Source: an uncultured Bdellovibrionales bacterium
GTDB lineage: Bacteria; Patescibacteriota; Minisyncoccia; Moranbacterales; UBA9337
Direction of reading: 5' to 3'
NCBI GenBank assembly: GCA_964605525.1
Contig: CAZSCV010000002.1
Location: 69,888 to 133,887 of the forward strand
Length of the DNA: 64,000 nt
Shown here: piece after piece, positions 19,360 to 55,424 of the stretch
How the letters are laid out: each line of letters begins with the position of its first letter
Numbering within the stretch: the first letter of the stretch is position 1
Notes under the pieces: model-generated
Database searches by the model: none
Told to the model about the DNA's origin: nothing
The model's input: only the letters and a program-made list of their open reading frames with translations
Position numbers and translations under genes: made by a program

Positions 19360-19950
19360 ATGAAGATAACAAAAGAAAAATTAGAACATTATTATTTTGC
19401 AAAAAAAATGTCGGTCAAAGAAATGACTAATGTTTTTATAAGAAGTGAAACATGTATTAGTTATTGGATGAAAAAATATGGAATAAAGAAAAGAACGATA
19501 AGCGAATCTGTATATTTAAAAAATAATCCGAATGGTGATCCATTTAAGATAAGGAAGGATTTAAACAGTGAGTTGACGGAATTAAAAGGAATAGGTATAG
19601 GGTTATATTGGGGTGAGGGAAACAAACGAAATAAAAATTCTATAAAAATTGGGAATACTGACCCAGCGTTAATAAAAAAATTTATAGAATTTTTAGTAAA
19701 AATTTTAGGAGTAAAAAGAAAAAATATACGTTTTTCTTTGCAGGTTTTTAGTGATATGAATTCAGAAAAAGCCAAGAGATATTGGTTAGAAGAATTAAAA
19801 GTTGACCCTGCGCAATTTTCAAAAAAAATAACCATAACTCATTCCGGAAAAGTCGGTAATTATAAAAGAAAAACGCAATACGGTGTTCTCACGATGTATT
19901 ATCACAATACAAAGTTGAGAAATATTTTAATTGCAATGTTGCCGTTGTAG
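19360..19950 (+). CDS. free-standing putative LAGLIDADG-like homing endonuclease (N-terminal HTH-like segment)
   Basis: GIGLYWGEGNK followed by ALIKKFIEFLVKILGV resembles the LAGLIDADG helix plus the following scaffold helix (compare I-CreI LAGFVDGDGS...LDKLVDEIGVG). Sits between two tRNA genes, and its last 10 nt overlap the 5' end of the intron-containing tRNA. Assignment is by motif only. Confidence 0.35.
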   Translation: MKITKEKLEHYYFAKKMSVKEMTNVFIRSETCISYWMKKYGIKKRTISESVYLKNNPNGDPFKIRKDLNSELTELKGIGIGLYWGEGNKRNKNSIKIGNTDPALIKKFIEFLVKILGVKRKNIRFSLQVFSDMNSEKAKRYWLEELKVDPAQFSKKITITHSGKVGNYKRKTQYGVLTMYYHNTKLRNILIAMLPL

Positions 19951-20256: not shown

Positions 20257-20418
20257 TATGGCAAAGACAAAGGAAAATCTGGTTAAATTCAAATGCAATG
20301 AGTGCAAAAAAATAACTCATTATTCTAATCGTAACAAAAAGAAATTGAAAGAGAAATTGGAAATGAAAAAATATTGCAAATTCTGCAAAAAGCATACTCT
20401 GCACAAGGAAGCGAAATA
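20257..20418 (+). CDS. rpmG: 50S ribosomal protein L33 (zinc-ribbon type)
   Basis: MAKTKENLVKFKCNECKKITHYSNRNKKKLKEKLEMKKYCKFCKKHTLHKEAK has the CxxC...CxxC L33 signature. Below the ORF-track size cutoff. Confidence 0.85.
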
Positions 20419-20448
20419 ATTTGACAAAAGTCCGCCCTGGCGGACAAA

Positions 20449-20519
20449 GGCGGGTGTCGTACAGTGGCAGTACGTTGGTCTCCAAAACCAATAACGGGAG
20501 TTCGATTCTCTCCACCCGT
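20449..20519 (+). tRNA. tRNA-Trp (anticodon CCA)
   Basis: Acceptor GCGGGTG/CACCCGT (G1.U72), D stem GTAC/GTAC, anticodon stem TTGGT/ACCAA with loop CTCCAAA, T arm GGGAGTTCGATTCTCTC. Preceded by a GTCCGCC-ctg-GCGGAC hairpin. Confidence 0.75.
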
Positions 20520-20530
20520 GCATATCAATT

Positions 20531-20557
20531 AAAAAACGCTTGAATAAGGCGTTTTTT
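20531..20557 (+). terminator. rho-independent terminator after tRNA-Trp
   Basis: AACGC-ttgaataag-GCGTT stem followed by T6. Confidence 0.6.
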
Positions 20558-20687
20558 ACGTTTTTGCTGTAGGTTTATTTGACACACAATGATTTTTATG
20601 CTATCATAAGTAGTTATTGAGGAATAACCCTCAATACAATCCTCAGCGATCGAGGGATCACTCTCGACGCAAAAAAGGAGGCCAGTT

Positions 20688-21122
20688 ATGGCAAATTTAG
20701 TTCTTATTGGTAAAGAAGGACAAATCAAGGCAAAGTTATCCTGCTCTGCATCCTTGCCTCCGGACTTCAAAGTTCCGGAAGGCTGCATTTTAAGCTGGGA
20801 TGATCAGCCGCATCGTGCCGAAGGATGGTATAAGGGCAACCAGAATCGTGGTCCGGAAATCATCAAGCACAGGAGTGCAAGCGCAGTACTGAGGAACTAC
20901 CATCCTACAGTTCATATTCGAATCGAGAGTTCGGATGCCAGAGATCTGTTTGAGCTGATTGAGATCGTATGGCTGCACATTGGCGGAACAGTTATCCCTG
21001 CCAGATGGCCAGCCGAGAGAGATCAATCGTTTATCGCTGGCGTTCAGGGTGATTGCAGGCGATTGAAGGATGGGATTGTTCGGGTCAAACAAGTCATTGG
21101 AATGAAACTCGCCTCTCTCTAG
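20688..21122 (+). CDS. hypothetical protein, compositionally foreign (about 50% GC)
   Basis: Strong RBS AAGGAGG 7 nt upstream. GC and codon usage unlike the flanking genes. No recognised family. Confidence 0.55.
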   Translation: MANLVLIGKEGQIKAKLSCSASLPPDFKVPEGCILSWDDQPHRAEGWYKGNQNRGPEIIKHRSASAVLRNYHPTVHIRIESSDARDLFELIEIVWLHIGGTVIPARWPAERDQSFIAGVQGDCRRLKDGIVRVKQVIGMKLASL

Positions 21123-21207
21123 GGGGGGGTGGCATAAGCTAATGATGCAAACGAAAGGGTTCTCTAGCCGAGCTAGTTGATCCCTTTTTTGTTTATTGAA
21201 TGATGGG

Positions 21208-21244
21208 CCAGTGATTTACAACAGACCATCACTGGTCTTTTTTA
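21208..21244 (+). terminator. rho-independent terminator (CCAGTGAT...ATCACTGG + T-run) fused to repeat copy A
   Basis: 8-bp perfect stem followed by TCTTTTTT. Confidence 0.65.
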
Positions 21245-21340
21245 TTTCATCAAAACCATCGCTCTCTCCAATCTAATTTCAATCACATCCCAATTCTCCA
21301 ATATATTGGTTCGAAGCGTGTACCCTAGTCTGTGCAAAAT
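21238..21340. repeat. copy A of a roughly 105-bp intergenic repeat family (TTTTTTATTTCATCAAAACC...CCAATATATTGGTTCGAAGCGTGTACCCTAGTCTGTGCAA)
   Basis: Near-identical to copy C at 31786-31886; diverged copy B at 22969-23071. Contains the 12-bp perfect palindrome CCAATATATTGG. Confidence 0.8.
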
Positions 21341-21601
21341 AAAGCAGTTTTCTTTACGGAGGCTGTTTTTTTTGTCAGAAAATCTTTTTTAGCGTAACTT
21401 CTTTTTCTTCCATAGCGTTAATTGAGTTAACCCTCCAGTTTACCAGAAAAAGGGGCTTCGGGGTTTGAATTCGGGCCATGGCTGAGGGCTGGACATTTTT
21501 ATTTATTTGTGCAATAATCAAATGTTGCCAAATGATTGGCATCCCTTGAATGCAGGTGGCATTCACAGTTCCTAAAACCCTAAAATGGGAAAGGAGATGC
21601 T

Positions 21602-22915
21602 ATGAAAACGAAAGGGGAAAAAGATGGCTTGTTGGGAGGTGCAATGGCTTTCTATCATGATAAGGGCTTTGTTCCTGCATTTAAGCAAGCAATGCGATAT
21701 GCTGCAGGACGTGCTGGCCGAGTTGGGACTATGCTGGACTGGGTGGATGCACGATTAGCAATACCGCCGTACGAAAAACTGGGCATGCATGACACATCAA
21801 ATCCAACTCCTTGGGATCAGTACTACACAACCATGTCTGCTGAGTATGTTGGTATCAGCAAGGGTGGAACCAAAATCTTGATCGTTGCTCATGGTATCGG
21901 ACCAATGGCAACACTTGATGGTGTCGTCGAAGCATATCGATATCATTATAATGATAAGACACGCCGGACTGAGGGTGGCCGTATTTCAGTGGAGGAGTTC
22001 CGGAAGCTTGAGAGTGGCATCTATGGTGACGTGGTGATTGTCGATCTTGAAGAGTATGTATTTGAGCGTGAGTATCCGTTCATTGCAACTCTCCACTATT
22101 TTGATGCACTGGATGACTCAGTGCTTAAGGCTCGCCTTGGCTCAAGGGCTGATGAGTACATTGAGCAACATGCAAATTATGCAAGGAAATACCATCTGGA
22201 TGCTCATCAGCGTATGATTATAGATCCCTACATTATAGGGAACGAAGGACCGGGAATGTACTGGGTCAAAAATACCAAGCCCGAAGATGGTCTTGCATAT
22301 GCTCATCTTCTGAGCGTCGGTGCGATTACGAATTTACATGTCAGCCAAAGCGAGCATCGGGTCCCCAGCTGGGTGTCTGATGTGAACACACATGGTTGGT
22401 ATGACGGTACTCGCCTGATTGGTATTCCTGAGGGTAAGCTTGCATCTATCGGCAAAGGCCCTGATGCATATCGCCTGCTGCGCAAGCACTGGCAAGAGCT
22501 TTTTGAGCCGAGTGGTCTCAACCGCTCACCCGATGGGCTCTTCGTTCTGATGCAAATGCCGGACAAGACGTGGTTCACGCAGTTCCAGAAGAAGGGAGCT
22601 AGCGCTGACAGCTACGAACCGGAATTCCGTGTGACGTCGATGGAGAAGGTGGGGGAACTTGCTCGGTTTTACACCGAGTCGAACTATCCCGTCCCGATCT
22701 TCCGATACGACATCCGCGAGGCGCAGGCTGTGCTTTCCAAAGAAACCAATGCTTACGAACTCGTTGGTGATCCGACCAAGACAGGTGGTGCTGATAGTCA
22801 GGAGACCTGTCTCGTGCAGGGCTATCGCATCGAAATTGACCATACGCAACGGCTTATGCGACAAGAAGTATTGGCCAATAATTACGAAAAGATGATGCAG
22901 CTTCACGAGAAGTAA
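21602..22915 (+). CDS. hypothetical protein, compositionally foreign (about 50% GC), 437 aa
   Basis: RBS GGAAAGGAG; no recognisable domain by inspection. Confidence 0.55.
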   Translation: MKTKGEKDGLLGGAMAFYHDKGFVPAFKQAMRYAAGRAGRVGTMLDWVDARLAIPPYEKLGMHDTSNPTPWDQYYTTMSAEYVGISKGGTKILIVAHGIGPMATLDGVVEAYRYHYNDKTRRTEGGRISVEEFRKLESGIYGDVVIVDLEEYVFEREYPFIATLHYFDALDDSVLKARLGSRADEYIEQHANYARKYHLDAHQRMIIDPYIIGNEGPGMYWVKNTKPEDGLAYAHLLSVGAITNLHVSQSEHRVPSWVSDVNTHGWYDGTRLIGIPEGKLASIGKGPDAYRLLRKHWQELFEPSGLNRSPDGLFVLMQMPDKTWFTQFQKKGASADSYEPEFRVTSMEKVGELARFYTESNYPVPIFRYDIREAQAVLSKETNAYELVGDPTKTGGADSQETCLVQGYRIEIDHTQRLMRQEVLANNYEKMMQLHEK

Positions 22916-22930
22916 AAGCATCGAAATCCT

Positions 22931-22974
22931 GCGGAGCCGCACCCACAGCAATATGTGGGTCGCGGCTCTTTTTT
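22931..22974 (+). terminator. rho-independent terminator (GAGCCGC...GCGGCTC + T6) fused to repeat copy B
   Basis: Long GC-rich stem-loop followed by a T-run. Confidence 0.6.
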
Positions 22975-23071
22975 ATTTCATCAAAATTCTTACTTGCTCT
23001 AATTTTGCCTTAACACTTTCCCAATTTTCCACCATTAAAGTTCGAAGTATATACCTTCTCCTGTGCTGATG
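22969..23071. repeat. copy B (diverged) of the roughly 105-bp repeat family
   Basis: Shares TTTTTTATTTCATCAAAA...CCAATTTTCC...AGTTCGAAGTATATACC...GTGCTGATG with copies A and C. A further right-end fragment is at about 23868-23915. Confidence 0.65.
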
Positions 23072-23233
23072 AAAAACGAGGCTTATTTGAGCTTTGTTTT
23101 TGTTTGGGGACTGGACATGATAACTTCTTTTAGTGTCTACCAACGCGCATTGAATAAAGGCAGGAACTATGTTAGTATCGAGGTGGATTATAAATTAATT
23201 CACCTTGTTTTTATTAGATTAAAAAAATGCAAT

Positions 23234-23770
23234 ATGACAAACAAATTAGAAAAATGGGAGGAAATTTCCAGAGAGGAAATTTTTAGTAAATATGGGAGAG
23301 GCATTGAAAAAGTTGATTTCAAATTGCCAAATGGAGAAATCACTGATTTCTATATCAAAAAGGAAAGTGTTTTCGTGGCTACCCTAGCGATAACCAAAGA
23401 TGAAAAAATCATTCTTGTTAAGCAATTCAGACCAGGACCAAAAGAAATTCTTACTGAATTGCCTGGTGGTTATGTTGACAAAGGCGAGATTCCGAAGCAA
23501 GCGGCAGAAAGAGAACTTTTAGAAGAGACTGGGTATAAGGGAAGCGCAGAATTTGTAACATCTATCATTGGCGACGGTTATTCTACGATGGAAAAAAATT
23601 GTGTCGTGGTGACTGATTGTGAGAAAGTTTCCGAACAAAAACTTGAAGAAAATGAATTTACTGAAGTTGTGTTGATGTCAATTGCAGAATTTAGAGAATT
23701 GCTTAGAAGTGGAAAAAGCTCAGATGTTGAAGTCGGATATCTTGGTTTGGATTACTTAGGATTATTGTAG
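23234..23770 (+). CDS. NUDIX hydrolase (ADP-ribose pyrophosphatase-like)
   Basis: Nudix box GGYVDKGEIPKQAAERELLEETGY. Start chosen at the internal ATG (MTNKLEKWEE), because the upstream part of ORF 23063 overlaps repeat B. Confidence 0.75.
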   Translation: MTNKLEKWEEISREEIFSKYGRGIEKVDFKLPNGEITDFYIKKESVFVATLAITKDEKIILVKQFRPGPKEILTELPGGYVDKGEIPKQAAERELLEETGYKGSAEFVTSIIGDGYSTMEKNCVVVTDCEKVSEQKLEENEFTEVVLMSIAEFRELLRSGKSSDVEVGYLGLDYLGLL

Positions 23771-24140
23771 ATAAAAAAATAGTGAGCAGGAGAGTGGGGT
23801 AATTTATATTTGCTGGCTTAAGTCTGGAATATAAATATATTCCTTTCTTTTCATAAAAATAGTTCTAACGTCCTTTACTACCCCGTGCATATAAAACAAG
23901 GCTTATTTGCTAGAGTCTTGTTTTCGTGTCTTGTGGATTGGGGTTAGAATTGTGATATAATGGGCATATGAAAATAAATAAATTGACTCCGGAAGAAAAA
24001 AGAATAATTATCGACGCGGTAGCTACCTATGAGTAAAATTGGATTAGGTCTATAAAGTGGTTTAACAACGGGGATGGGCGGGTGTAAGATATTAGTATAA
24101 TCTAAATTATACTAATCTGAATTATAGATATTATAAAAAT

Positions 24141-24215
24141 ACTAAGAATTCAGGAATTTCAGCCAAAGACTGATCCGCCTATGGCGGAAATTCAGTAATA
24201 AGTTCAGTAATAAAC
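24141..24215. repeat. left boundary repeat of defense-like island (GAATTCAGGAATTTCAG...CCGCCTATGGCGG AAATTCAGTAATAA GTTCAGTAATAAAC)
   Basis: Shares the core GGAATTCAGTAATAAA (direct) and the GAATTCAGGAATT/AATTCCTGAATTC module with 30190-30262. Confidence 0.6.
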
Positions 24216-24231
24216 TTATTAAAACAAAAAA

Positions 24232-24396
24232 ATGCCAAGAAGAAAATCGGAAGATAATAATATCAGGAAATTGACCAAATCCGGCAACGGGTCAATTGGG
24301 CTAACGCTTCCGATTGAAGTTGTTCGCGAACTTGGTTGGAAAGAAAAGCAGAAAGTTTACCCCGTAGTCAGCCCCGATGTACTACTGGGGTGGTAG
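24232..24396 (+). CDS. AbrB/SpoVT (MazE-like) swapped-hairpin DNA-binding small protein, 54 aa
   Basis: KLTKSGNGSIGLTLPIEVVRELGWKEKQKV is typical of AbrB/MazE-type antitoxin or regulator domains. Below the ORF-track cutoff. Confidence 0.5.
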   Translation: MPRRKSEDNNIRKLTKSGNGSIGLTLPIEVVRELGWKEKQKVYPVVSPDVLLGW

Positions 24397-24539
24397 TCAA
24401 ACGAGTCCGTGGAGGCGTGCTGGTTAAGGACTGGAAAAATAAGATTTTATAAAAACTATGGCAAGCGAAAAGAAAATTGAGGCTTTTGAAAAAACCCTTT
24501 TTAAGGTGGCAGATAAATTGCGAAAAAAATATAAATATT

Positions 24540-25958
24540 ATGGATATAAGCGAAATTAAAAAAATAATTAATAGGGCTTTCGATGCTCGTTCAGAGCTAA
24601 GCGGAATAGAATTTAAAGATGCGCGCGGTGGATTTCCAGCAGACCCAACGGCAAAAACTCTTTCTGCTTTTGGCAATACGAAAGGTGGCGTTATTGTATT
24701 TGGCGCGTTGGAACATAAAGATCGTTCTTTGGAAATTGTTGGCACGCAAAATTCTGCAGTACTACAAGAGCGTATGGCACAGTTGTCATCTGAAGGCATG
24801 AGTGAAGTATTGCGTCTGGAATATCAAATCCTTTCTATGGAAGGAAAAACAGTTTTGGCAGTAGTTGTTCCGGAATGCCGTAGTCATGTTAAGCCATATT
24901 ATGTAAAAAAATTTGGTATGGATAGAGGTGCATTTGTGCGTGACGGTATTACGGATCGTCAGATGACAGCCGAGGAAGTGCGAAGTTGCGTGCGTAATGC
25001 GCAAGTTGATGATTTTGATGGAAATTGTGCGGATAATCTAATCAAAGAAGATCTATCGATTATAAAAATTGAAAATTTTCTCAAAAAAAGTGCAAAAAAG
25101 GTTGGACGTATTTTTGATAGTGTTGACGATGTGCTTCTTAAAAATATCGGCGTGGCACGTGAATGTGGTGGTGTTTTACGCCCAACAATTGCAGGTTATC
25201 TTATTTTTGCAAATCAAAATCCGCAAAACACTCTTCAGTTTGAGCGTTATAAGATTAGATGTGTCAGATTTAAGGGATCAGGAGTAGCGAGTGATATTAT
25301 TGATAAAGCAGATATCGTTGGCACACTGGATGAACAGATTGATGTTATGGAATCTTTTGTATTACGCAATATTAAAAATAGTGCTGAAATTGTAGGCACT
25401 AAACGAGTTGAGAGATATGAATATCCGGAAAAAGCAGTTCGCGAGATTTTGGCTAATGCTGTTATTCATAGGGATTATCGTATCACAGAAACATATACGC
25501 AAGTCAATATTTTTGACGATCGTATAGAAGTATTTAATCCAGGGAACTTGCCTCCGGGTGTAACAGTGGAAAATATTAAGGATGCGCAAGAGAGTCGCAA
25601 TCGCATCATAGCAGCTCGTCTTAATGAAATGGACTATCTTGAAGAATATGGTCGTGGTATCGATATAGTTTTTACATTGATGTCAGCATGGGGATTGTTG
25701 CCGCCAATTTTCAAAAACTCATCAAATAGCTTTAAGGTTGTCCTACCAGGTGAAAGATTGAGTAAATTAAATGATCGTCAGATTAAAATTTGGCAATATT
25801 TGATGGACAACAATAGATTAAATCGTAAGGATGTTGAAAAGATATTACCAGATACCCCCGTGGAAACTATCAAATATGATTTACGAAAAATGAAGGATAT
25901 GGGTCTTATTGGCCAACGAGGCGAATCTATTAACACATATTATGAGGCAGCCTTTTAG
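24540..25958 (+). CDS. AlbA_2 (Schlafen-like) DNA-binding domain + HATPase_c_4 ATP-binding protein (putative regulator, COG2865-like)
   Basis: N-terminal IKKIINRAFDARSELSGIEFKDARGGFP...GGVIVFG AlbA_2-type; C-terminal RecG-C/HATPase_c_4-like region and winged HTH. Confidence 0.55.
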   Translation: MDISEIKKIINRAFDARSELSGIEFKDARGGFPADPTAKTLSAFGNTKGGVIVFGALEHKDRSLEIVGTQNSAVLQERMAQLSSEGMSEVLRLEYQILSMEGKTVLAVVVPECRSHVKPYYVKKFGMDRGAFVRDGITDRQMTAEEVRSCVRNAQVDDFDGNCADNLIKEDLSIIKIENFLKKSAKKVGRIFDSVDDVLLKNIGVARECGGVLRPTIAGYLIFANQNPQNTLQFERYKIRCVRFKGSGVASDIIDKADIVGTLDEQIDVMESFVLRNIKNSAEIVGTKRVERYEYPEKAVREILANAVIHRDYRITETYTQVNIFDDRIEVFNPGNLPPGVTVENIKDAQESRNRIIAARLNEMDYLEEYGRGIDIVFTLMSAWGLLPPIFKNSSNSFKVVLPGERLSKLNDRQIKIWQYLMDNNRLNRKDVEKILPDTPVETIKYDLRKMKDMGLIGQRGESINTYYEAAF

Positions 25959-25961
25959 AGG

Positions 25962-26078
25962 AATTAACCGCAATTAACCGTAATAGTAAAAAATGGCTTA
26001 GGGAGGGGGAGGGGGAGGGTGTATAATGCCTAAAGGAATTAACCGCAATTAACCGTAATAGTAAAAAATAGCTTAAAA
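25962..26078. repeat. two 41-bp direct repeats (GGAATTAACCGCAATTAACCGTAATAGTAAAAAAT.GCTTA) separated by a G-tract GGGAGGGGGAGGGGGAGGG
   Basis: Read directly: 25962-26002 and 26037-26078. Each repeat contains AATTAACCG twice. The intervening G3-5 tracts fit a G-quadruplex motif. Confidence 0.7.
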
Positions 26079-26424
26079 TAAGGATTTTAAGGGTATGGAG
26101 TTTTAGACGAAATTAGACGAATTAAACGCAATGTCGAAAAAGGCTTAAATAAAAGACTTATGATCGTGTAGCCTTTTAAATTAAAGAATCTTAAAGGAAA
26201 CATTGGAGATTGGGGAAAGGGAGAAATATGAAAAGAAGATTGGGGTGGCCAAAAAAGAGGGTCGGAAATGCCGGTCTTTTGGATATAATCGCAATCATCT
26301 GACTGGATTACAAACTGGAATTGCTGCGAAGTTGCCCTTGCGATGCTCATTTGAGAAAGTGTTGAGTAATCAGTTGCTTGATGGTATTATATAAATATAA
26401 TAACATCCCTTAATTTCAACAAAT

Positions 26425-27447
26425 ATGGAACGAAAAGACATTATTAAAAAAATTGAGACATTGCGAAGCTCAAAGGTGATAACCTACGCAACCAGTGATC
26501 GGCAAGGTCCAGTCAATGCTCGGGTGGCGATGGATATTATTCCGATTATCAGCTCGCAACTGCGAAAGATTGGGAAGCAAGAAAAGATTGATTTGGTGCT
26601 GTATAGCGCAGGAGGCGACACCATGGTGCCATGGCGCTTGGTTTCGATGATTCGCGAGTATTGCGACCAGTTTTCTGTAATAATCCCATATAAAGCCCAT
26701 AGTGCGGCCACTATGATTTCTTTGGGAGCGGATGAAATTGTGATGAGCGATATGAGCGAGCTTTCACCGATTGATCCGTCCACAGCCAATGTTTTCAATC
26801 CGATTGACCCGCAAAATCCGCAAAAACGCATCCCGATTTCCGTGGAAGAAGTGATGAGCTATTTTGATTTGGCAAAAAACAAGTTTGGAATCAAGAGCGA
26901 TGAGGAACTGACCAAGATTTTCAACAAGTTTGTGGAAAGCACACCATCCATCCATCCTTTGGCTTTGGGTAATGTTAATCGAACACACAATCTGATTAAA
27001 ATCCTAGCGAAAAGATTACTTAAGAGCCATAAGGAGTCGATGAAAGAGGATGAGGTGGAAAAAGTGATTGAATTCCTGACGGAAAAATTATATTCACATC
27101 AATACTACATTGGAAGAAAAGAAGCCAAGGAAGATCTCGGCATTAAGTCTGTGGTTTTTGCTGGCCAAGATCTTTCTGATCTGATGACGGATATTTATGA
27201 AGAGTATGAAAAGGAAATGAATATGCGAAAAATGTGGAATCCGGAGAATGAAATCGGCGGCAATGCAGAAACTAGAAAAGAATATAAAATCGCATTCGTC
27301 GAAAGCGCGGAAACGAGCAATCATTTTGGAATCAATATGGAATTTAAAAAAGTCCAACAAAACATCCCACAACAAACTCCGCAAGGAATCATTCAAATTC
27401 CACAGGAGCAAATTGTTTGGAGAATGATTGGACAGGGGTGGAAATAA
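26425..27447 (+). CDS. Clp-fold serine protease (SDH/SppA-ClpP-like)
   Basis: LVLYSAGGDTMVPWRLVSMIREYCDQFSVIIPYKAHSAATMISLGADEIVMSDMSELSPIDP resembles the ClpP/crotonase-fold catalytic core (Ser, then His/Asp). Confidence 0.45.
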   Translation: MERKDIIKKIETLRSSKVITYATSDRQGPVNARVAMDIIPIISSQLRKIGKQEKIDLVLYSAGGDTMVPWRLVSMIREYCDQFSVIIPYKAHSAATMISLGADEIVMSDMSELSPIDPSTANVFNPIDPQNPQKRIPISVEEVMSYFDLAKNKFGIKSDEELTKIFNKFVESTPSIHPLALGNVNRTHNLIKILAKRLLKSHKESMKEDEVEKVIEFLTEKLYSHQYYIGRKEAKEDLGIKSVVFAGQDLSDLMTDIYEEYEKEMNMRKMWNPENEIGGNAETRKEYKIAFVESAETSNHFGINMEFKKVQQNIPQQTPQGIIQIPQEQIVWRMIGQGWK

Positions 27448-27448
27448 A

Positions 27449-27733
27449 ATGAAAAATTTAATCAACATAGAAATCAAAGATTCATTCAACAAGAAGGATC
27501 ACTCATACAAAAAAGATGAAGATATTTCCAATCATGTCTCCACGCTAAATGATACAAAAAACATTTTGGAAACTTATTCTGCTAGTGTGGGATCGATTAC
27601 GGGACATCATTTTGATGGAAGTATAAATATTGTAAAAAATCAAGGAAAAGGAATTTGGAGAGAAATTATTATTGGAACTACCAGTGCAGTTCTTGGTGCA
27701 GTTATAAGTTATTTCATTTTTGGAATTAAGTAA
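27449..27733 (+). CDS. small protein with C-terminal TM anchor (operon partner of the protease)
   Basis: Start 2 nt after the protease stop; C-terminal IIIGTTSAVLGAVISYFIFGI helix. Confidence 0.4.
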   Translation: MKNLINIEIKDSFNKKDHSYKKDEDISNHVSTLNDTKNILETYSASVGSITGHHFDGSINIVKNQGKGIWREIIIGTTSAVLGAVISYFIFGIK

Positions 27734-27739
27734 TAAAAT

Positions 27740-28429
27740 ATGAAGAAGTATAAAATTGATATTTATGTATTGTTGCCTGCAATAGCATTCTTGGTGGGTT
27801 GGTTTTTAAAAGGGCTCATAAATTTCAATATAATCAAATTACTAAATTCAAATTTTTTTGTTGCTCTTATCACTGCAATAGTGGGCTATACTGCTATCCA
27901 TTTGTATAAAAAACAGCAAGCAGATAATAAGAAAAATGCTGCAAGACTTATCATACAGGAAATAAGATATGCGGAACAACAAATACGAAATGCAAAAATG
28001 TTGACGCCTGCAGTAGAAACCAATTATTATTTGGCATTAAAATTATTACCAACAAATAGCTGGCATAAAAACATACATTTATTTGTTGAGGATTTGCAAG
28101 AAGAAAATCAACTTGATCTCGTTAGTCAATTTTACTCCCAAGCAGCTTATCTGGATAGCGTAATTGAAATAATTTCCAACGAAAAAAACAAGACATGGAA
28201 TGTTGTAAAATCCTCACTTCTTGCAAATGAAAAAGGTCAAATGCAAATAGCAATGGGGCTTATCCTTCCCTCTGGACATAGTACATTAGACGCTTCAAAT
28301 GAAAATTTTAAAATTGAATTAAAGCTTCAGGCCAATCAAATTTTATCTGATGTTACAGGCAAAATAGAGTTTATATATAATTCTTCTGCTGTGGATAAAT
28401 TAAGATCTATTGCTAAAGGTAAGTTGTAA
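27740..28429 (+). CDS. membrane protein with two N-terminal TM helices and cytoplasmic domain
   Basis: Tightly spaced in the same operon; no family recognised. Confidence 0.45.
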   Translation: MKKYKIDIYVLLPAIAFLVGWFLKGLINFNIIKLLNSNFFVALITAIVGYTAIHLYKKQQADNKKNAARLIIQEIRYAEQQIRNAKMLTPAVETNYYLALKLLPTNSWHKNIHLFVEDLQEENQLDLVSQFYSQAAYLDSVIEIISNEKNKTWNVVKSSLLANEKGQMQIAMGLILPSGHSTLDASNENFKIELKLQANQILSDVTGKIEFIYNSSAVDKLRSIAKGKL

Positions 28430-28441
28430 AAAATATTAATT

Positions 28442-29215
28442 ATGAAAAAGGACGACCAGCGATGGACACGAGAACAGACAATAGTCGCTTTTAACTTATA
28501 TTGTAAAATCCCTTTCAATAGAGTTACTTCAAGTCACCCTGAAATAATAAAAATCGCCAAAATTATCGGTCGGAGTGTAAATTCGGTAAAAATGAAAATA
28601 GGCAATTTTGGAAGTTTTGATCCAGAGCTTAAAAAAAGAGGAATTGTTGGACTTACCAATGCAAGCAAGCTGGATGAGGTTGTTTGGAATGAATTTAATA
28701 ATAATTGGGATGATTTGGCTTTCGAAAGCGAAAAAATATTAACGAGCTTTGAGGGAGGGGACATTTTGAAAAATGCACAAGCCAGTGAAGATAATTTTTG
28801 TTTTGTGGAAGGAATTGAAAAGGAAAGATTGGTAAAGACAAGGGTAAATCAAAGCTTTTTTCGCCAGACAGTTTTATCTGCGAATAATTCATCCTGTTGT
28901 ATTACTGGAATAGATATTCCAGCACTTCTTATTGCCAGTCATATAATTCCTTGGAGCAAAGCGGCCAAAGACAGGCTAAACCCACGAAACGGATTATGTC
29001 TGAATGCCCTGCATGACAAAGCTTTCGATAAAGGACTGATGACTATTACCCCTGACTTTAAAATAAAAATATCTCCAAAAATACTCGAGAACCCGAGTGC
29101 GCCAATTGAAAAATGGATAGCCAGTTTTGAAGGTAAAAATATAATAATTCCAGAAAGATTTGTGCCAACAACTCAAATACTTGAGTATCATAATAAAAAT
29201 ATTTTTCAATTATGA
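28442..29215 (+). CDS. HNH endonuclease (HNH_2 / putative restriction endonuclease family)
   Basis: CCITGIDIPALLIASHIIPWS...NGLCLNALHDKAFDKGLMTI matches the HNH_2 core. Confidence 0.65.
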   Translation: MKKDDQRWTREQTIVAFNLYCKIPFNRVTSSHPEIIKIAKIIGRSVNSVKMKIGNFGSFDPELKKRGIVGLTNASKLDEVVWNEFNNNWDDLAFESEKILTSFEGGDILKNAQASEDNFCFVEGIEKERLVKTRVNQSFFRQTVLSANNSSCCITGIDIPALLIASHIIPWSKAAKDRLNPRNGLCLNALHDKAFDKGLMTITPDFKIKISPKILENPSAPIEKWIASFEGKNIIIPERFVPTTQILEYHNKNIFQL

Positions 29216-29713
29216 TTGCTAAAACAACATATATTCGGCCGAATATTACGATTGAATATGAGATTATCGGATCAAGAAAGTTTTACATATATAATTACAA
29301 GGGAATCCATTATAGGGTTTTTTGTTCGTTGAAAAATTTACGAAATTTTATTACAAAGGCATGCGAAACATGGATTTTTGAATGTGGCACTGAAAATGAA
29401 TTAGAAAAATATTTATACAGCCATATCCAAGCACATTAAAATCAAGAATTTTTTGGTTGCGATCGCGTTGGGCATGACACCAAATAAGAAATGGGACGGC
29501 TTCACTAAGGCGCACGGCGGCTATATTATTGTCAGGGAGGACGGGGAACTTGTTTGTTATCATCTCTATAATAGAGATGAGTTTCAAAATTATCTTTACA
29601 AGAATACCAAATTGGATACGCCAAGCACAACCAGACATAAATTCGGGAGTATTTATGAAGAAAACGGAGAGAAAAAAGTAAAATATAATCTGCAAATAAG
29701 GTTTATAAAATAG
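29212..29713 (+). pseudogene. frameshifted remnant ORFs (29212-29439 frame 1; 29453-29713 frame 2), possibly a decayed restriction endonuclease
   Basis: Two short adjacent ORFs in different frames immediately upstream of vsr. No methyltransferase present. Family not identifiable by eye. Confidence 0.3.
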
Positions 29714-29723
29714 TATTCAAATC

Positions 29724-30125
29724 ATGGCAGATATTTTTTCAAAAAATAAAAGATCCGACATAATGTCCAAAATCAAAAGTAAGGAAACGGGAATTGAAAT
29801 AAAACTGAGAAAAGAACTGTGGAAGGCGGGCTACAGATATCGGAAAAATGTATCAGGCTATTTCGGAAAGCCTGATATTTTATTAAAAAAATACAAGACG
29901 GTTATTTTCGTTGATTCCTGTTTTTGGCACGGATGTAAAAAACACGGATCAATGCCTCAAACTCGCAAGAAATTTTGGAAAGAAAAAATCGAGCGAAACA
30001 AAGAACGAGACAAAGAGGTTAATAAGTATTACAAAAAAATAGGCTGGAAGGTTATCAGAATTTGGGAGCATGATATAATAAATGGCTCATGGATAAAAGG
30101 GGTCAGGCACTTTTTTGAGAAATAA
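29724..30125 (+). CDS. vsr: very short patch repair endonuclease Vsr
   Basis: RSDIMSKIKSKETGIE...FVDSCFWHGCKKHG...GWKVIRIWEHD is canonical Vsr. Confidence 0.85.
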   Translation: MADIFSKNKRSDIMSKIKSKETGIEIKLRKELWKAGYRYRKNVSGYFGKPDILLKKYKTVIFVDSCFWHGCKKHGSMPQTRKKFWKEKIERNKERDKEVNKYYKKIGWKVIRIWEHDIINGSWIKGVRHFFEK

Positions 30126-30189
30126 GATTAAAATAAAATTATGACACCAAAAAACAAAAAATTTTCCATTGCTCTTGCCGGCTGGCGCA

Positions 30190-30262
30190 AGGCTCTGAAT
30201 TGTCCGTAATTAATTCCTGAATTCCTGCCCGCCTCTGGAGGGAATTCAGTAATAAATAAAAA
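30190..30262. repeat. right boundary repeat of defense-like island (AATTCCTGAATTCCTG CCCGCC TCTGGAGGG AATTCAGTAATAAATAAA)
   Basis: Shares core sequences with 24141-24215. Contains the inverted repeat CTGAATTCC...GGAATTCAG. Confidence 0.6.
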
Positions 30263-30337
30263 TTAAAATAAATAAATAAAAAAAATATCCAAACTCATCA
30301 TTTACTCTTAATTATTTAATTTGGATTCTCAACTAAG

Positions 30338-30499
30338 ATGTCCCAACAAAAAATAAAAATCATCACTGTAAATGACAAGATGCAGTCAGGATACAAATAT
30401 AATCTGACTGAGTTGATGGGGAAGAATTTTGATCCGGCGTTCAAGCCGGAGCTGACTCCCAAGGAGATGCTGGCGCTGGAATTGTATTCAAAAGCGTGA
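30338..30499 (+). CDS. 53-aa ORF upstream of fic (possible cognate small partner/antitoxin, or N-terminal gene fragment)
   Basis: MSQQKIKIITVNDKMQSGYKYNLTELMGKNFDPAFKPELTPKEMLALELYSKA. Its stop lies in the first CAAAAGCGTGAAAA repeat. Confidence 0.3.
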   Translation: MSQQKIKIITVNDKMQSGYKYNLTELMGKNFDPAFKPELTPKEMLALELYSKA

Positions 30500-30534
30500 A
30501 AATGTGAGAATTTTAATGATTTTTCACGATTATG

Positions 30535-30562
30535 TTGACAAAAGCGTGAAAAAGAGTATAAT
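30535..30562 (+). promoter_or_regulatory. consensus sigma70 promoter TTGACA-16-TATAAT for fic, overlapped by direct repeat CAAAAGCGTGAAAA (x2)
   Basis: Perfect hexamers. The 14-nt motif occurs at 30489-30502 and within the spacer at 30539-30552. Confidence 0.65.
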
Positions 30563-30570
30563 ATTAACAT

Positions 30571-31458
30571 ATGGTTAAAATACTAAATGTCTACAATAAA
30601 ATAAGTTTTCTGCGCGAGCGATACTATGAGGCATCTGCCGATAAAGATGCGCTTATTAAGCTTATTGCTGAAGCTGAAGTGGCTGAACAGGTGTATAACT
30701 CCAATGCCATCGAAAACAGCACTCTTTCACTTGAAGAAACGGAAAAAATACTTTTACAGATTGATCTGGATAGATATATTTCTGAGCGAGAAATTTTTGA
30801 AGCCAAAAATTTGGCACGAGTTGTGTCATACATTGATAAAAAATCTAAAGAGCAAGAACTCACTCTTGAGGTAATTTTGTCATTGCATAAAATGCTAATC
30901 TCCAATATTCGCGATGACATTGCTGGCAGATTCAGAAAAGATAATGAATTTGTGCGAGTTGGAAATCACATTGCGCCTAATCCAAAAGAAGTGGTTGAAC
31001 GATTAGAAAAAATGCTGGCTGAATATAATGCTTCAAGTCACGAAAATATTATAAAGCGTATTGCAAAACTGCATTTGACTTTTGAATATGCTCATCCATT
31101 TTGTGATGGCAATGGACGCATTGGGCGAGTTATTAATAATTATCTGTTAATGCGAGAGGGGTTCGTGCCGATAAATATAAAATTTATTGATCGCAAAAAA
31201 TATTATGAAGCGTTTCGAGAATTTGATGCAAATGGATCGACTGCTATTATGGAGGAAATAGTTGGCAAAGCTTTGACTAATAGTTATCATAAGCGGTTGG
31301 CATATTTGGAAGGCAAAAAAATAATTACCTTGGTTGAATATGCAAAAAACAATAAGCTTTCACATTCTAATATGATAAATAAGGCTAGTAGACAAACTAT
31401 TGAGGCTTTTTTGGAAAAGAATGTTTGGAAAATTGGGATCAATAATGATACAAAATAA
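30571..31458 (+). CDS. fic: Fic/Doc family protein (AMPylation-type toxin-like)
   Basis: Fic motif HPFCDGNGRIGR. Confidence 0.85.
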   Translation: MVKILNVYNKISFLRERYYEASADKDALIKLIAEAEVAEQVYNSNAIENSTLSLEETEKILLQIDLDRYISEREIFEAKNLARVVSYIDKKSKEQELTLEVILSLHKMLISNIRDDIAGRFRKDNEFVRVGNHIAPNPKEVVERLEKMLAEYNASSHENIIKRIAKLHLTFEYAHPFCDGNGRIGRVINNYLLMREGFVPINIKFIDRKKYYEAFREFDANGSTAIMEEIVGKALTNSYHKRLAYLEGKKIITLVEYAKNNKLSHSNMINKASRQTIEAFLEKNVWKIGINNDTK

Positions 31459-31785
31459 TATTTTATAAACGAATCAGAAACAAGAGCTGAATATATTGAT
31501 CCCAAGTTGAAAACCAGTGGCTAGGGAGAAGTTGAAGCTAAAAGGTATACTCAATTCTGTGCTGATGTGATAAAATTCGAAATAGTTTGGTAGTGTCCCC
31601 GATAACATCTGCGTTGCAGACTGAAGGATGCTAGGGAATTGGCTCTGGTTTTCCCGGACACTAAAAACGCACGGTCCCCAGCGGTCATGGTCCACCGTAT
31701 AGGCCACGTTGCTGAAATATGGACTTGTTTACCGGGATTTGAGCAGGAATGCTATTTATTAAAGCTTCCTGATACTCAGATCCCG

Positions 31786-31886
31786 TTTTTTATTTCATCA
31801 AAACCATCGCTCACTTCAATTTAATCTCAATCACATCCCAATTCTCCAATATATTAGTTCGAAGCGTGTACCCTAGTCCGTGCAAG
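31786..31886. repeat. copy C of the roughly 105-bp repeat family (near-identical to copy A)
   Basis: TTTTTTATTTCATCAAAACCATCGCTCACTTCAATTTAATCTCAATCACATCCCAATTCTCCAATATATTAGTTCGAAGCGTGTACCCTAGTCCGTGCAAG. A partial right-end copy at about 31540-31580 (GGTATACTCAATTCTGTGCTGATG) lies in a GC-richer segment. Confidence 0.8.
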
Positions 31887-39721: not shown

Positions 39722-39755
39722 ATACCAGAAAGACGGCTGATTATGGAAATTTTTT

Positions 39756-41639: not shown

Positions 41640-41648
41640 AGATAAGTT

Positions 41649-43877: not shown

Positions 43878-43962
43878 GTCTATTAATATCGCTTTTTTAA
43901 TAAAAATATGTTAAAATAAGTAGGAATTAAAAAACCTTATTTTCCATTATATCGCATTTACA

Positions 43963-47305: not shown

Positions 47306-47318
47306 ATAAAAAAATAAT

Positions 47319-48146
47319 ATGCATAAATTGCAAAAAAACCTCGGGGAATACTGGAATAAATTCAAATCGTTGATAGCGAAAAATAAAAAAGTTGTGGTTA
47401 TTGGTGTTGCATTGGCGGTGCTTTTACTTTCCGGTTTTTGGGTTTGGAGGGAATGTGAAGTTAATCGTCCCTTAAAAATTGGGATTATGTCTGACATTCA
47501 CGCCGCTAACGACAAAGTGCGAATGGCTGACAATGAACCGGCGGGCTATCCGAGAAAATATAAGGAATATTTTGCATCCGCTTTGGATAAAATGAAAGAA
47601 GAGAAGGTCGATGTGGTATTGGCACTAGGGGATAACACTAATGTGGGCAATCCAAAATATGCAAAAAGTCTAATGGAAATTATGGCAGAAAAAAAAGCGA
47701 GTGTTATGTGGGTAAAAGGAAATCATGACCGGACAAAAACCAAAGTAATGACCTATTTCGGAATCGACAAGACATACTATTTCCAAGATGTTAAAAATTG
47801 GCGTATAATTGTGCTGGATTCTTCATTTACCGGAAAAGATTATACTGGCGAAATAGACGCGGAGCAGATGAAATGGCTCAAGGAAGCGCTCAAAACCGAC
47901 AGACGCGTGATTATTGCAATGCATCATCCAATATTTAACAAGGAAAATTTGGAAAATATTTATCCGATTTACAAAGATTTTGTGGAAACTATTTCAAATA
48001 GTCACAATGTTAAGGATGTGTTTTTTGGACATTTTCACAAATATGATATGGTTAAGGAAATAAACGGAGTAAAATATCATCTCGTCCCATCATTGACCGG
48101 AAATGAAAACGAACCGATTTTTAAGATCATAGAATTTGAAGAATGA
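47319..48146 (+). CDS. calcineurin-like metallophosphoesterase, paralog 1
   Basis: IGIMSDIHA, LGDNTNVGN, GNHD, GHFH motifs; N-terminal TM. Confidence 0.75.
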   Translation: MHKLQKNLGEYWNKFKSLIAKNKKVVVIGVALAVLLLSGFWVWRECEVNRPLKIGIMSDIHAANDKVRMADNEPAGYPRKYKEYFASALDKMKEEKVDVVLALGDNTNVGNPKYAKSLMEIMAEKKASVMWVKGNHDRTKTKVMTYFGIDKTYYFQDVKNWRIIVLDSSFTGKDYTGEIDAEQMKWLKEALKTDRRVIIAMHHPIFNKENLENIYPIYKDFVETISNSHNVKDVFFGHFHKYDMVKEINGVKYHLVPSLTGNENEPIFKIIEFEE

Positions 48147-48988: not shown

Positions 48989-48997
48989 AAAAAAATT

Positions 48998-50767: not shown

Positions 50768-50772
50768 AAAAT

Positions 50773-55347: not shown

Positions 55348-55424
55348 ATCGGAAATGAATTCATTTTTGTCCCTTTAAAATATAATAAAAAATTAGAATT
55401 GGGCTAATATACGGAGGGAGGATT

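What the first reader, a model, noticed from the sequence alone, without database searches (positions are those of the whole stretch)
20560..23110. Compositionally foreign (about 50% GC) insertion immediately downstream of tRNA-Trp and rpmG
Two ORFs (144 aa and 437 aa) have clearly higher GC and different codon usage from the 33% GC flanks. They sit right after the tRNA-Trp terminator, where many bacteria continue with secE-nusG-rplK. Each ORF ends with its own strong terminator fused to a copy of the same roughly 105-bp repeat. Neither protein resembles a known family by eye. A tRNA-adjacent position, foreign composition and repeat boundaries are the hallmarks of an integrated element or cassette-like cargo.
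Basis: partly seen in the sequence, partly recalled or inferred. Interest (0 to 1): 0.6.

Follow-up and report, generated by a model that had tools for sequence, protein, structure and literature searches.

The report
Stacked gene modules behind tRNA-Trp
The GC-rich 2.5 kb after tRNA-Trp in this candidate-phyla-radiation bacterium consists of two small self-contained accessory gene modules stacked in a recombination hotspot, each ending in an attachment-site-like repeat that copies the tRNA's last bases, and one of them carries a widespread uncharacterised protein with the fold of a retroelement-diversified lectin.

Summary
ORF144 and ORF437 have 48.5% and 49.3% GC in a 37% GC window. They follow rpmG and tRNA-Trp. 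Each has its own promoter and terminator and ends in a ~100-nt repeat, with a third copy 8.8 kb downstream.

The "integrated cargo" reading is partly right. In related Moranbacteria-like contigs, the interval between tRNA-Trp and the repeat holds different genes. In contig L070 the ORF144 module joins the end of a repeat at CCCGTGCA, the same 8 bases that end tRNA-Trp where the module joins in the window. In L071 the tRNA 3' end plus ~75 nt of its flank is duplicated on the far side of ORF437.

No integrase, transposase or reverse transcriptase lies in the window or beside homologs.

High GC is not evidence of recent import. The ORF437 family exceeds host GC in 52 of 54 genomes, and orthologs sit at the same site in relatives.

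ORF437 homologs are solitary genes enriched on the 3' side of tRNA/tmRNA genes (21:1 within 1 kb). Direct repeats flank them in 7 of 46 loci. The predicted fold matches AvpA, a DGR variable lectin, but no DGR features are present.

Best reading: decayed, cis-mobilisable tRNA-targeted modules. The protein functions remain unknown.

The parts
20258..20419 (+). rpmG (ribosomal protein L33), conserved left neighbour
   Evidence: Pfam PF00471, E 2.7e-14. Same order rpsB-tsf-PSP1-TPR-tRNAs-rpmG-tRNA-Trp in L001.
20450..20521 (+). tRNA-Trp (CCA). Its last 8 nt, CCCGTGCA (20514-20521), are the recombination core (attL side).
   Evidence: ARAGORN and Rfam. In L070 the sequence that follows this core here (97% identical over 653 nt) follows the end of a repeat copy instead.
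20522..21337 (+). Module A: terminator hairpin 20530-20558, promoter 20579-20607, ORF144, two terminator hairpins, repeat copy c1
   Evidence: The whole module from 20515 onward recurs at 97% identity in L070 behind tRNA-Trp, Fic and a repeat.
20688..21122 (+). ORF144, a small protein of unknown function (48.5% GC)
   Evidence: One 96% homolog in the word-indexed search. Fourteen cluster representatives of about 140-150 aa at 28-53% identity in the exhaustive search. AF2 model pLDDT 81: beta-sheet core plus a long C-terminal helix. No significant PDB fold match.
21238..21337 (+). Repeat copy c1 (att-like arm), ending in the core-like TCTGTGCA
   Evidence: Starts at the T-run of terminator hairpin 21223-21238. 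Followed by hairpin 21341-21369.
21476..21601 (+). Conserved promoter (21490-21518) and 5' leader of ORF437
   Evidence: About 93% identical to L001 and L071 from about 125 nt upstream of the ATG. Homology to L001 is lost further upstream.
21602..22915 (+). ORF437: stand-alone accessory protein with an AvpA-like C-type lectin N-terminal domain plus a C-terminal beta-rich domain (49.3% GC)
   Evidence: 151 cluster hits at 36-90% identity, all unnamed. AF2 pLDDT 91. Foldseek hit 5ioo_A (AvpA), E 6.4e-8, TM 0.71. Profile alignment of residues 29-143 to AvpA 21-128.
22934..22974 (+). Terminator hairpin and T-run of ORF437
   Evidence: Read from the sequence. Conserved in L001.
22969..23068 (+). 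Repeat copy c2 (att-like arm), ending in the core-like CCTGTGC
   Evidence: The same repeat follows the ORF437 orthologs of L001/L006 and L071, and the 40%-identical homolog of L057.
23069..23112 (+). Displaced copy of the native tRNA-Trp downstream flank (terminator GAAAAACGAGGCT..AGCTTTGTTTTTG..GGGG), attR side
   Evidence: Aligns with the sequence that directly follows tRNA-Trp in L064, L070 and L071, and with the flank after the repeat in L071.
31786..31885 (+). Repeat copy c3, behind Fic and a terminator hairpin. Possible outer boundary of an 11.4-kb accessory region (20522-31885).
   Evidence: 94% identical to c1. L070 also has Fic followed by this repeat. Content of 23069-31885: NUDIX, MazE-like, Schlafen/AlbA_2 ATPase, SDH protease, HNH, Vsr, Fic.

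Best explanation
The GC-rich stretch is two small accessory gene modules stacked head-to-tail at the 3' end of tRNA-Trp, a recombination hotspot in this Moranbacteria-like lineage.

Each module is self-contained. It has a terminator that closes the upstream transcript, its own sigma-70-like promoter, one gene and a strong terminator. It ends in a ~100-nt arm whose last 7-8 bases repeat the 3' end of tRNA-Trp.

Modules are gained, lost and re-ordered by recombination at this short core. This leaves a copy of the tRNA end and of its downstream flank on the far side, as attL and attR do.

No recombinase is encoded in the modules. They are therefore best seen as decayed or cis-mobilisable elements (CIME-like tandem accretion) that depend on a recombinase encoded elsewhere, or as now fixed.

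ORF437 is long-resident cargo. It belongs to a Patescibacteria-wide, single-copy, partner-less accessory family with an AvpA-type C-type lectin fold. The family is repeatedly found as a repeat-flanked one-gene module on the 3' side of tRNA and tmRNA genes, and it keeps a GC content well above every host.

Shown: module anatomy, junctions, comparative polymorphism, tRNA association and fold.
Inferred: site-specific (rather than homologous) recombination, a trans-acting recombinase, and a ligand-binding role for ORF437.
For: 1. Slot polymorphism. Between tRNA-Trp and the repeat:
- the window has ORF144 and ORF437;
- L071 has ORF437 only;
- L070 has Fic, a repeat, then the ORF144 module;
- L001/L006 have radical SAM, two ATP-grasp genes, a C39 peptidase and ORF437;
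- L067 has five other genes separated by junction sequences, yet shares both flanks with L001;
- L064/L066 have a GNAT gene and two small ORFs.

2. Exact junction. In L070 '...CCCGTGCA|TATCAATTAAAAAACGC...' joins a repeat end to the sequence that in the window follows the genuine tRNA end, at 97% identity over 653 nt.

3. Flank duplication. In L071 about 75 nt (core plus tRNA flank) occur both after tRNA-Trp and after the repeat behind ORF437. The window has the same flank after c2.

4. Independent lineages repeat the design.
- L004: tmRNA | CYTH | 144-nt repeat ending in the tmRNA 3' end TCTCCAC plus a copy of the tmRNA flank | ORF437 homolog | 144-nt repeat (91% identical).
- L025: tRNA-Trp | small ORF | repeat | homolog | repeat, then a 14-nt copy of the tRNA end, then miaA.
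- Flanking direct repeats occur in 7 of 46 loci, with the same geometry in the clearest four (window, L004, L011, L025).

5. tRNA association. Within 1 kb of homologs there are 21 tRNA/tmRNA genes with the gene on their 3' side and 1 on the 5' side. Density is about 14-fold over background and involves at least 11 tRNA identities. The neighbours on the other side are core genes (def, miaA, 6PGD, tsaD).

6. Accessory status. There are 58 loci among 185,579 species genomes, one copy in a complete chromosome (L011), and no conserved neighbour family.
Against: - No integrase, resolvase or transposase was found in the 64-kb window or in about 20 kb around any homolog. The only exception is an IS3-family pair beside the repeat in L066.
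- The core in the window is only 7-8 nt, and it is imperfect in c1 and c2.
- The 140 nt between c1 and the ORF437 promoter does not fit a simple order of successive integrations at the tRNA.
- ORF437 is at the same site in relatives that differ by 10-17% in protein sequence, so nothing shows present-day mobility.
- Homologous recombination between the 100-nt repeats or the conserved flanks could give the same swaps.
- No excised circle or empty site was observed.
- 70% of homolog loci have no tRNA within 1 kb, and 85% show no flanking repeats.
Confidence: 0.6

Rival explanations
1. The locus is resident and not a mobile element. ORF437 is an old chromosomal gene of this lineage. The repeats are dispersed intergenic sequences, and the slot varies through deletions and ordinary homologous recombination or transformation between strains using the conserved flanks. 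The high GC reflects constraints on the gene itself.
For: Orthologs lie at the same place with the same GC excess in L001/L006 and L071. The family GC excess is universal and tracks host GC. There is no recombinase. The repeats are 65-94% identical and long enough for homologous exchange.
Against: The junction falls exactly at the tRNA 3'-end core. The tRNA or tmRNA end and flank are duplicated distal to the gene in three lineages. There is a 21:1 bias for the 3' side of many different tRNA genes. These features are the classical footprint of site-specific integration and are not expected from homologous exchange.
Confidence: 0.2
2. ORF437 is the mobility protein. The 1.6-1.8-kb unit (promoter, ORF437, terminator, repeat) would be a minimal self-mobilising element that targets the 3' ends of tRNA/tmRNA genes. 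The other repeat-bearing modules (ORF144, Fic and others) would be its non-autonomous passengers.
For: ORF437 is the only constant gene inside repeat-flanked units in four lineages whose repeats no longer align as DNA. It is solitary between a tRNA and core genes with no other candidate recombinase. Many assemblies yield contigs of 1.4-2.4 kb holding just this gene; L005 is bounded by the repeats. Many conserved charged and polar residues suggest an active site.
Against: The fold matches a ligand-binding C-type lectin (AvpA) and no known recombinase, nuclease or DNA-binding fold. It is single-copy in a complete genome and in every MAG. Most loci have neither tRNA nor repeats nearby. The window-type repeat also bounds modules in contigs where ORF437 is not seen.
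Confidence: 0.08
3. ORF437 is a target (variable protein) of a diversity-generating retroelement, like its structural relative AvpA.
For: The only significant PDB fold match is AvpA (E 6.4e-8), with weak profile similarity. DGRs with AvpA-like targets are reported from uncultivated groundwater organisms (PMC5006420); that DGRs are common in CPR bacteria specifically is recalled from the literature, not checked here.
Against: No template repeat matches any part of the gene within 10 kb in 56 loci. No reverse transcriptase is in the window. Differences among 80-90% identical homologs are evenly spread, with no hypervariable patch at the VR-equivalent region.
Confidence: 0.03
4. The region is an integron-like cassette array in which the ~100-nt repeats act as attC sites.
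For: There is one ORF per unit, a repeat follows each ORF, and cargo varies between strains.
Against: The repeat has no conserved hairpin or imperfect palindrome (consensus fold energy -0.44 kcal/mol). The cassettes carry their own promoters. No intI is present. The array is anchored on a tRNA 3' end, not on attI.
Confidence: 0.04

Closest known systems
Tandem tRNA/tmRNA-targeted genomic islands and cis-mobilisable elements (CIMEs). Examples: Dehalococcoides ssrA-specific islands (PMC3146451) and ICESt1/CIME accretion in streptococci (reviewed in PMC5704250).
   Same: Both sit at the 3' end of a tRNA or tmRNA gene. Both have direct repeats of that 3' end at each distal boundary, with extra conserved sequence next to the repeat. 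Both have several units in tandem, strain-specific cargo, and units that keep att sites but lack integration genes.
   Different: The units here are tiny (0.8-1.7 kb, one gene each). No unit in any locus examined carries an integrase. The core is very short (7-8 nt in the window). The arm carries a conserved reverse-strand reading frame of unknown meaning. The host is a reduced CPR genome, where I found no paper describing such islands (one literature search).
AvpA, the C-type-lectin-fold variable protein of Nanoarchaeota diversity-generating retroelements (PDB 5IOO; PMC5006420)
   Same: [quoted passage not shown] The paper described AvpA's inserts as having no structural relatives.
   Different: ORF437 is bacterial and 437 aa long, with an added C-terminal beta-rich domain. 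It has no VR/TR pair, no RT, no hypervariability, and no DGR within 10 kb in 56 loci.
Integron gene cassettes
   Same: One gene per unit, a repeat at the 3' end of each unit, and variable content between strains.
   Different: There is no attC-type secondary structure and no integron integrase. The units have their own promoters and terminators. The anchor is a tRNA gene.
dif/pdif modules and IMEX elements (from my own knowledge, not tested here)
   Same: Small modules without their own recombinase, bounded by short recombination sites and moved by a host recombinase.
   Different: No XerC/D-type 11-6-11 site is recognisable in the repeat. The link to tRNA 3' ends is not a feature of Xer-dependent elements.

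Membership tests
tRNA-targeted integrative element / genomic island | Lies immediately 3' of a tRNA or tmRNA gene | tested here: met
   The window module starts 1 nt after tRNA-Trp. Across homolog loci, 21 of 22 tRNA/tmRNA genes within 1 kb have the gene on their 3' side.
tRNA-targeted integrative element / genomic island | Direct repeat of the tRNA 3' end at the distal boundary (attR) | tested here: met
   Core C(C/T)GTGC(A) at the end of every repeat copy. About 75 nt of core plus flank duplicated in L071. A 14-nt copy in L025. The tmRNA end plus a 62-nt flank copy in L004. In the window itself the core is only 7-8 nt and imperfect.
tRNA-targeted integrative element / genomic island | Element-encoded integrase (tyrosine or serine recombinase) | tested here: not met
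   No recombinase Pfam hit among the 47 window ORFs scanned (almost all of those of 110 aa or more) or among the 20 ORFs flanking homologs.
tRNA-targeted integrative element / genomic island | Presence/absence or content polymorphism at the site among relatives | tested here: met
   Six different contents of the tRNA-Trp slot.
tRNA-targeted integrative element / genomic island | Excision to a circular form / empty attB | not testable with these tools
   This needs read-level data. L005 is bounded by the two repeats of L004, but repeat-induced assembly breaks explain that.
Cis-mobilisable element (CIME) | Retains attL/attR but lacks integration and transfer genes | tested here: met
   Att-like boundaries are present and no mobility genes are found.
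Cis-mobilisable element (CIME) | Mobilised by a related integrase-bearing element integrated in tandem | not tested
   No integrase-bearing partner was seen in the DNA available.
DGR variable protein (AvpA-like) | C-type lectin fold of the AvpA subclass | tested here: met
   Foldseek 5ioo_A, E 6.4e-8, probability 1.00, TM(target) 0.71, on a pLDDT-91 model. Profile hit E 0.1.
DGR variable protein (AvpA-like) | Variable region paired with a template repeat differing at adenines | tested here: not met
   blastn of each gene against its +-10 kb flanks found no match in 56 loci. The repeat finder over the whole window also found nothing.
DGR variable protein (AvpA-like) | Reverse transcriptase (and Avd) nearby | tested here: not met
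   No RVT hit in the window ORFs. No recurrent neighbour family.
DGR variable protein (AvpA-like) | Localised hypervariability among near-identical copies | tested here: not met
   Variable positions among five sequences at 80-100% identity are evenly spread: 5-6 per 20 aa in residues 241-280, against 7-10 in residues 141-240 and 7-8 in 281-340.
Integron cassette | attC site: imperfect palindrome folding into a conserved hairpin | tested here: not met
   RNAalifold on 8 copies gives no structure in the 100-nt core, energy -0.44 kcal/mol.
Integron cassette | Integron integrase and attI next to the array; mostly promoterless cassettes | tested here: not met
   No integrase is found. Both ORFs have 10-11/12 consensus promoters.
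Insertion sequence / transposon | Transposase domain, terminal inverted repeats, multiple copies | tested here: not met
   No Pfam or NCBIfam hit. No inverted repeats bound the units. There is one locus per genome, including the complete chromosome CP060229.

The most novel reading that the evidence does not exclude
The ORF437 family is the active component of a previously unrecognised minimal mobile element. It would be a single gene with a C-type-lectin-like fold that, together with its adjacent 100-200-nt arm, directs its own insertion at the 3' ends of tRNA and tmRNA genes in Patescibacteria and mobilises passenger modules that carry the same arm. A related variant is that the conserved reverse-strand reading frame in the arm is the tail of a recombinase gene that is complete only in the excised circle.
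Probability: 0.08. Interest if true: 0.9.

Novelty: new variant of a known kind. Interest (0 to 1): 0.52.

Why it matters
CPR/Patescibacteria genomes are small, and little seems to be documented about how they exchange accessory genes; one literature search found no paper on genomic islands in this group. This locus shows a concrete, sequence-defined hotspot. One-gene modules with their own promoter and terminator are stacked behind tRNA-Trp, and behind tmRNA or other tRNAs in other lineages. Their boundaries are attachment-site-like, and no recombinase is on board. That gives a testable model for gene flux in these episymbionts.

It also defines a protein family of more than 150 clusters, carried by these modules, that is structurally related to a DGR-diversified lectin yet is not diversified. 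Such a family is a natural candidate for host-cell or phage interaction.

The work also cautions against reading GC deviation alone as recent transfer, because this family is GC-rich in essentially every host.

Tried and rejected
- **Family libraries for both ORFs.** Pfam, PHROGs, PADLOC and NCBIfam gave nothing.
- **Phage or plasmid origin.** There is no homolog in IMG/VR or in the phage records. The only plasmid hit is one distant partial match in a Rhizobium record.
- **DGR.** No TR, RT or hypervariable patch.
- **Structured RNA or known RNA family** in the repeat, the ORF437 leader or the 31460-31785 segment. Rfam found nothing above noise, and the repeat has no consensus structure.
- **The repeat as the 3' end of a living reverse-strand gene.** A profile search of 5.8 billion proteins found only one 52-aa fragment. 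Substitutions show almost no codon periodicity (300/270/357), and 3 of 9 copies have in-frame stops. I rejected a present-day gene for these reasons. The shared peptide motif across lineages remains unexplained.
- **The repeat as a relic of the LAGLIDADG/HNH-like ORF196 family.** hhalign was not significant.
- **The repeat tail as a duplicated 3' end of the adjacent reverse-strand gene** (miaA in L025, a methyltransferase in L004). The C-termini are unrelated.
- **The repeat as a decayed copy of the tRNA-Trp 3' half.** By eye, the CTCCAA, GTTCGA and CCGTGCA motifs occur in the same order, but the spacing differs. Left open as weak.
- **High expression as the cause of high GC.** rpsB and tsf are at the genome average.
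- **A conserved partner gene for ORF437.** None was found in more than 3 of 55 loci.
Full report
**Observation**

The window averages 37.3% GC. ORF144 (20688-21122) has 48.5% GC and ORF437 (21602-22915) has 49.3%, with 300-nt windows reaching 55.7%. GC is raised at all three codon positions, most at the third: 0.48-0.50 against 0.28-0.39 in neighbouring genes. Both genes lie about 3 sd above the other ORFs of the window. The highly expressed rpsB and tsf are at the average.

rpmG (20258-20419) and tRNA-Trp (20450-20521) lie directly upstream. Each ORF has a near-consensus promoter (20579-20607 and 21490-21518) and ends in a hairpin and T-run. Each is followed at once by a ~100-nt repeat, at 21238-21337 and 22969-23068. 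A third copy lies at 31786-31885, behind a Fic gene.

**The two proteins**

Neither protein matches Pfam, PHROGs, PADLOC or NCBIfam.

ORF144 has one 96% homolog. It belongs to a small family of 14 cluster representatives of about 140-150 aa. Its model (pLDDT 81) has no significant PDB neighbour.

ORF437 has 151 cluster-level relatives at 36-90% identity. All are unnamed, and the sources label them Moranbacteria, Parcubacteria, Vogelbacteria and others. A 50-sequence alignment gave an AlphaFold model with pLDDT 91. Its only significant PDB neighbour is 5IOO, which is AvpA, the C-type-lectin-fold variable protein of Nanoarchaeota diversity-generating retroelements (E 6.4e-8, TM 0.71 on the target). 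A weak profile match covers AvpA residues 21-128, a region whose inserts were described as having no structural relatives (PMC5006420).

ORF437 is nevertheless not a DGR target:
- No template repeat matches any part of the gene within 10 kb in 56 loci.
- No reverse transcriptase is in the window.
- Differences among 80-90% identical homologs are evenly spread.
- There are no phage homologs, and only one distant plasmid hit.

**Composition is a family trait**

I examined 54 genome loci holding homologs. The gene exceeds the GC of its flanks in 52 of them. The mean excess is 8.4 points and the maximum is 16. Gene GC tracks host GC with r = 0.80 and slope 0.76. The ortholog in L001 (83% identical, same site) has 48% GC in a 34% GC context. 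High GC is therefore maintained over long residence and cannot be read as recent import. I cannot explain what maintains it.

**The slot behind tRNA-Trp is hypervariable**

The upstream synteny (rpsB-tsf-PSP1-TPR-tRNAs-rpmG-tRNA-Trp) is conserved in L001. What follows tRNA-Trp differs between contigs:

| Contig | Content after tRNA-Trp |
|---|---|
| Window and L072 | ORF144, then ORF437 |
| L071 | ORF437 only |
| L070 | Fic, a repeat, then the ORF144 module |
| L001/L006 | Radical SAM, two ATP-grasp genes, C39 peptidase, then ORF437 |
| L067 | Five unrelated genes separated by junction sequences; both outer flanks shared with L001 |
| L064/L066 | A GNAT gene and two small ORFs |
| L065 | A signal-peptide ORF between two repeat copies |

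All of these end in the same repeat.

**Junctions**

Every repeat copy ends in C(C/T)GTGC(A), which is the 3' end of tRNA-Trp.

In L070, '...CCCGTGCA|TATCAATTAAAAAACGC...' joins a repeat end to the sequence that in the window follows the genuine tRNA end, at 97% identity over 653 nt.

In L071 the tRNA end plus about 75 nt of its downstream flank (a terminator and the motif CTTCGAAC) recurs after the repeat on the far side of ORF437. The window has the same flank after c2, and L001 has it in front of its ORF437 module.

This is the attL/attR footprint of integration at a tRNA 3' end, with the 100-nt repeat as an arm next to the core.

**The pattern recurs in other lineages**

- **L004** (65% identical homolog): the order is tmRNA, CYTH, a 144-nt repeat, the homolog, then a second 144-nt repeat that is 91% identical to the first. 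The first repeat ends in the tmRNA 3' end TCTCCAC and is followed by a 62-nt copy of the tmRNA flank.
- **L025** (40% identical): the order is tRNA-Trp, a small ORF, a repeat, the homolog, a repeat, a 14-nt copy of the tRNA end, then miaA.
- **Direct repeats** flank the homolog in 7 of 46 testable loci. In the four clearest (window, L004, L011, L025) the geometry is the same: the upstream copy ends 160-270 nt before the ATG and the downstream copy starts 45-80 nt after the stop.
- **tRNA association:** within 1 kb of homologs, 21 tRNA/tmRNA genes have the gene on their 3' side and 1 has it on the 5' side. Density is about 14 times background, and at least 11 tRNA identities are involved.
- **Neighbours:** the gene on the other side is usually a core gene (def, miaA, 6PGD, tsaD), never an integrase. 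No neighbour family recurs.
- **Rarity:** the family is rare (58 loci in 185,579 species genomes) and single-copy, including in one complete chromosome.

**What is missing or odd**

No integrase, transposase or RT is found in the window or beside homologs. The only mobility genes seen are an IS3-family pair beside the repeat in L066.

The repeat has no conserved secondary structure and no Rfam match.

Its reverse strand carries an open frame that always ends at a stop next to the upstream terminator. The DNA-unalignable repeats of L011 and L025, and the repeat of L057, share the motif W-[ND]-x-[IF]-E at the same place. This holds in 5 of 5 repeat-bearing loci and 0 of 49 others. Against a coding role, substitutions within the window-type family show almost no codon periodicity, 3 of 9 copies have stops, and no full-length parent exists among 5.8 billion proteins.

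In Dehalococcoides ssrA islands the reverse-strand integrase gene overlaps attL at its 3' end (PMC3146451). A similar arrangement that is complete only in an excised circle would reconcile these facts, but I could not test it.

**Interpretation**

The best reading (confidence about 0.6) is a stack of decayed or cis-mobilisable one-gene modules at a tRNA-Trp integration hotspot. This is analogous to tandem accretion of CIMEs and to ssrA islands (PMC5704250; PMC3146451). ORF437 would be long-resident, probably ligand-binding cargo.

The whole 20522-31885 interval may be one accreted accessory region bounded by c3. It holds ORF144, ORF437, NUDIX, a MazE-like gene, a Schlafen-type ATPase, an SDH protease, HNH, Vsr and Fic.

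Rivals:
- A non-mobile resident locus reshuffled by homologous recombination (0.2).
- ORF437 as the mobility protein of a minimal element (0.08).
- An integron-like array (0.04).
- A DGR target (0.03).

**Verdict**

Its arguments from composition and from lack of family were wrong, and no integrase exists nearby. The kind of system is known, namely tRNA-targeted tandem islands. The miniature recombinase-less modules in a CPR genome, the conserved arm with its reverse-strand frame, and the AvpA-like family tied to tRNA 3' flanks make it a new variant worth follow-up.

Noticed in passing
window 60166-61230 (+): An esterase/PHB-depolymerase-like ORF (Pfam Esterase_PHB) with 52.7% GC. It is the strongest GC outlier of the whole window, higher than the two ORFs of the finding, and has long antisense ORFs.
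   Followed up: no
window 55149-58200: A cluster of repeats: three copies of a 209-nt unit (99% and 86% identical), plus 82-nt and 136-nt repeat families and 61-nt inverted repeats, around small unannotated ORFs.
   Followed up: no
window 19360-19950 (+); L064 1247-1858: A 28% GC ORF of 196 aa sits between tRNA-Tyr and rpmG, with weak PHROG 'HNH endonuclease' hits at its N-terminus. A similarly placed 203-aa ORF, which looks related by eye (not compared), sits between tRNA-Thr and tRNA-Tyr in L064, and L001 has no comparable ORF at this position. It looks like a free-standing homing-endonuclease-type gene inside the tRNA cluster.
   Followed up: partly
window 23069-31885: Between repeat copies c2 and c3 lies a run of defence- or addiction-like genes: NUDIX, a 54-aa MazE-like ORF, Schlafen AlbA_2 + HATPase_c_4 (PADLOC pAgo/SIR2-associated profile hits), a ClpP-like SDH protease, HNH_2, Vsr and Fic.
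   Followed up: partly
window 31459-31785: A 327-nt, 43% GC segment lies between the Fic stop and repeat c3 and ends in a terminator hairpin. It has no convincing ORF, no Rfam match, and no similarity to the ORF144 module.
   Followed up: partly
window 25956-26075: Two 45-nt direct repeats (96% identical, 75 nt apart) lie just after the Schlafen-like gene.
   Followed up: no
window 37814-52479: Six large PMT_2-type glycosyltransferase paralogs lie together with a GH28 glycosyl hydrolase and two metallophosphoesterases, forming a cell-envelope glycosylation block.
   Followed up: no
L001 5776-9720: In the relative, the slot of ORF144 is occupied by radical SAM, D-Ala-D-Ala-ligase-like, ATP-grasp and C39 peptidase genes. 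This looks like a RiPP-type peptide maturation cluster, in a CPR genome.
   Followed up: no
L066 558-1747 (-): An IS3-family orfA/orfB pair lies about 80 nt to the right of the repeat, so the hotspot also collects insertion sequences.
   Followed up: no
window 21519-21601; L001 and L071 equivalents: The 5' leader of ORF437 is about 93% conserved between genomes whose coding regions are 83-90% identical at the protein level. It contains two small hairpins (TGCCAA..TTGGCA and GAATGC..GCATTC), so it may be regulatory.
   Followed up: no
P0124 (library protein, 5709 aa): A giant protein matches residues 49-72 of ORF144 in 10 separate stretches, so that segment may be a repeat motif shared with a large surface-type protein.
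   Followed up: no
L060 (Mesorhizobium sp. SP-1A), L043, L053, L062; plasmid NZ_CP140867.1: Distant members of the ORF437 family (29-38% identity) occur outside Patescibacteria: in an isolate Mesorhizobium chromosome, a Rhizobium replicon, and MAGs labelled Cyanobacteria, Obscuribacterales and Alphaproteobacteria.
   Followed up: no
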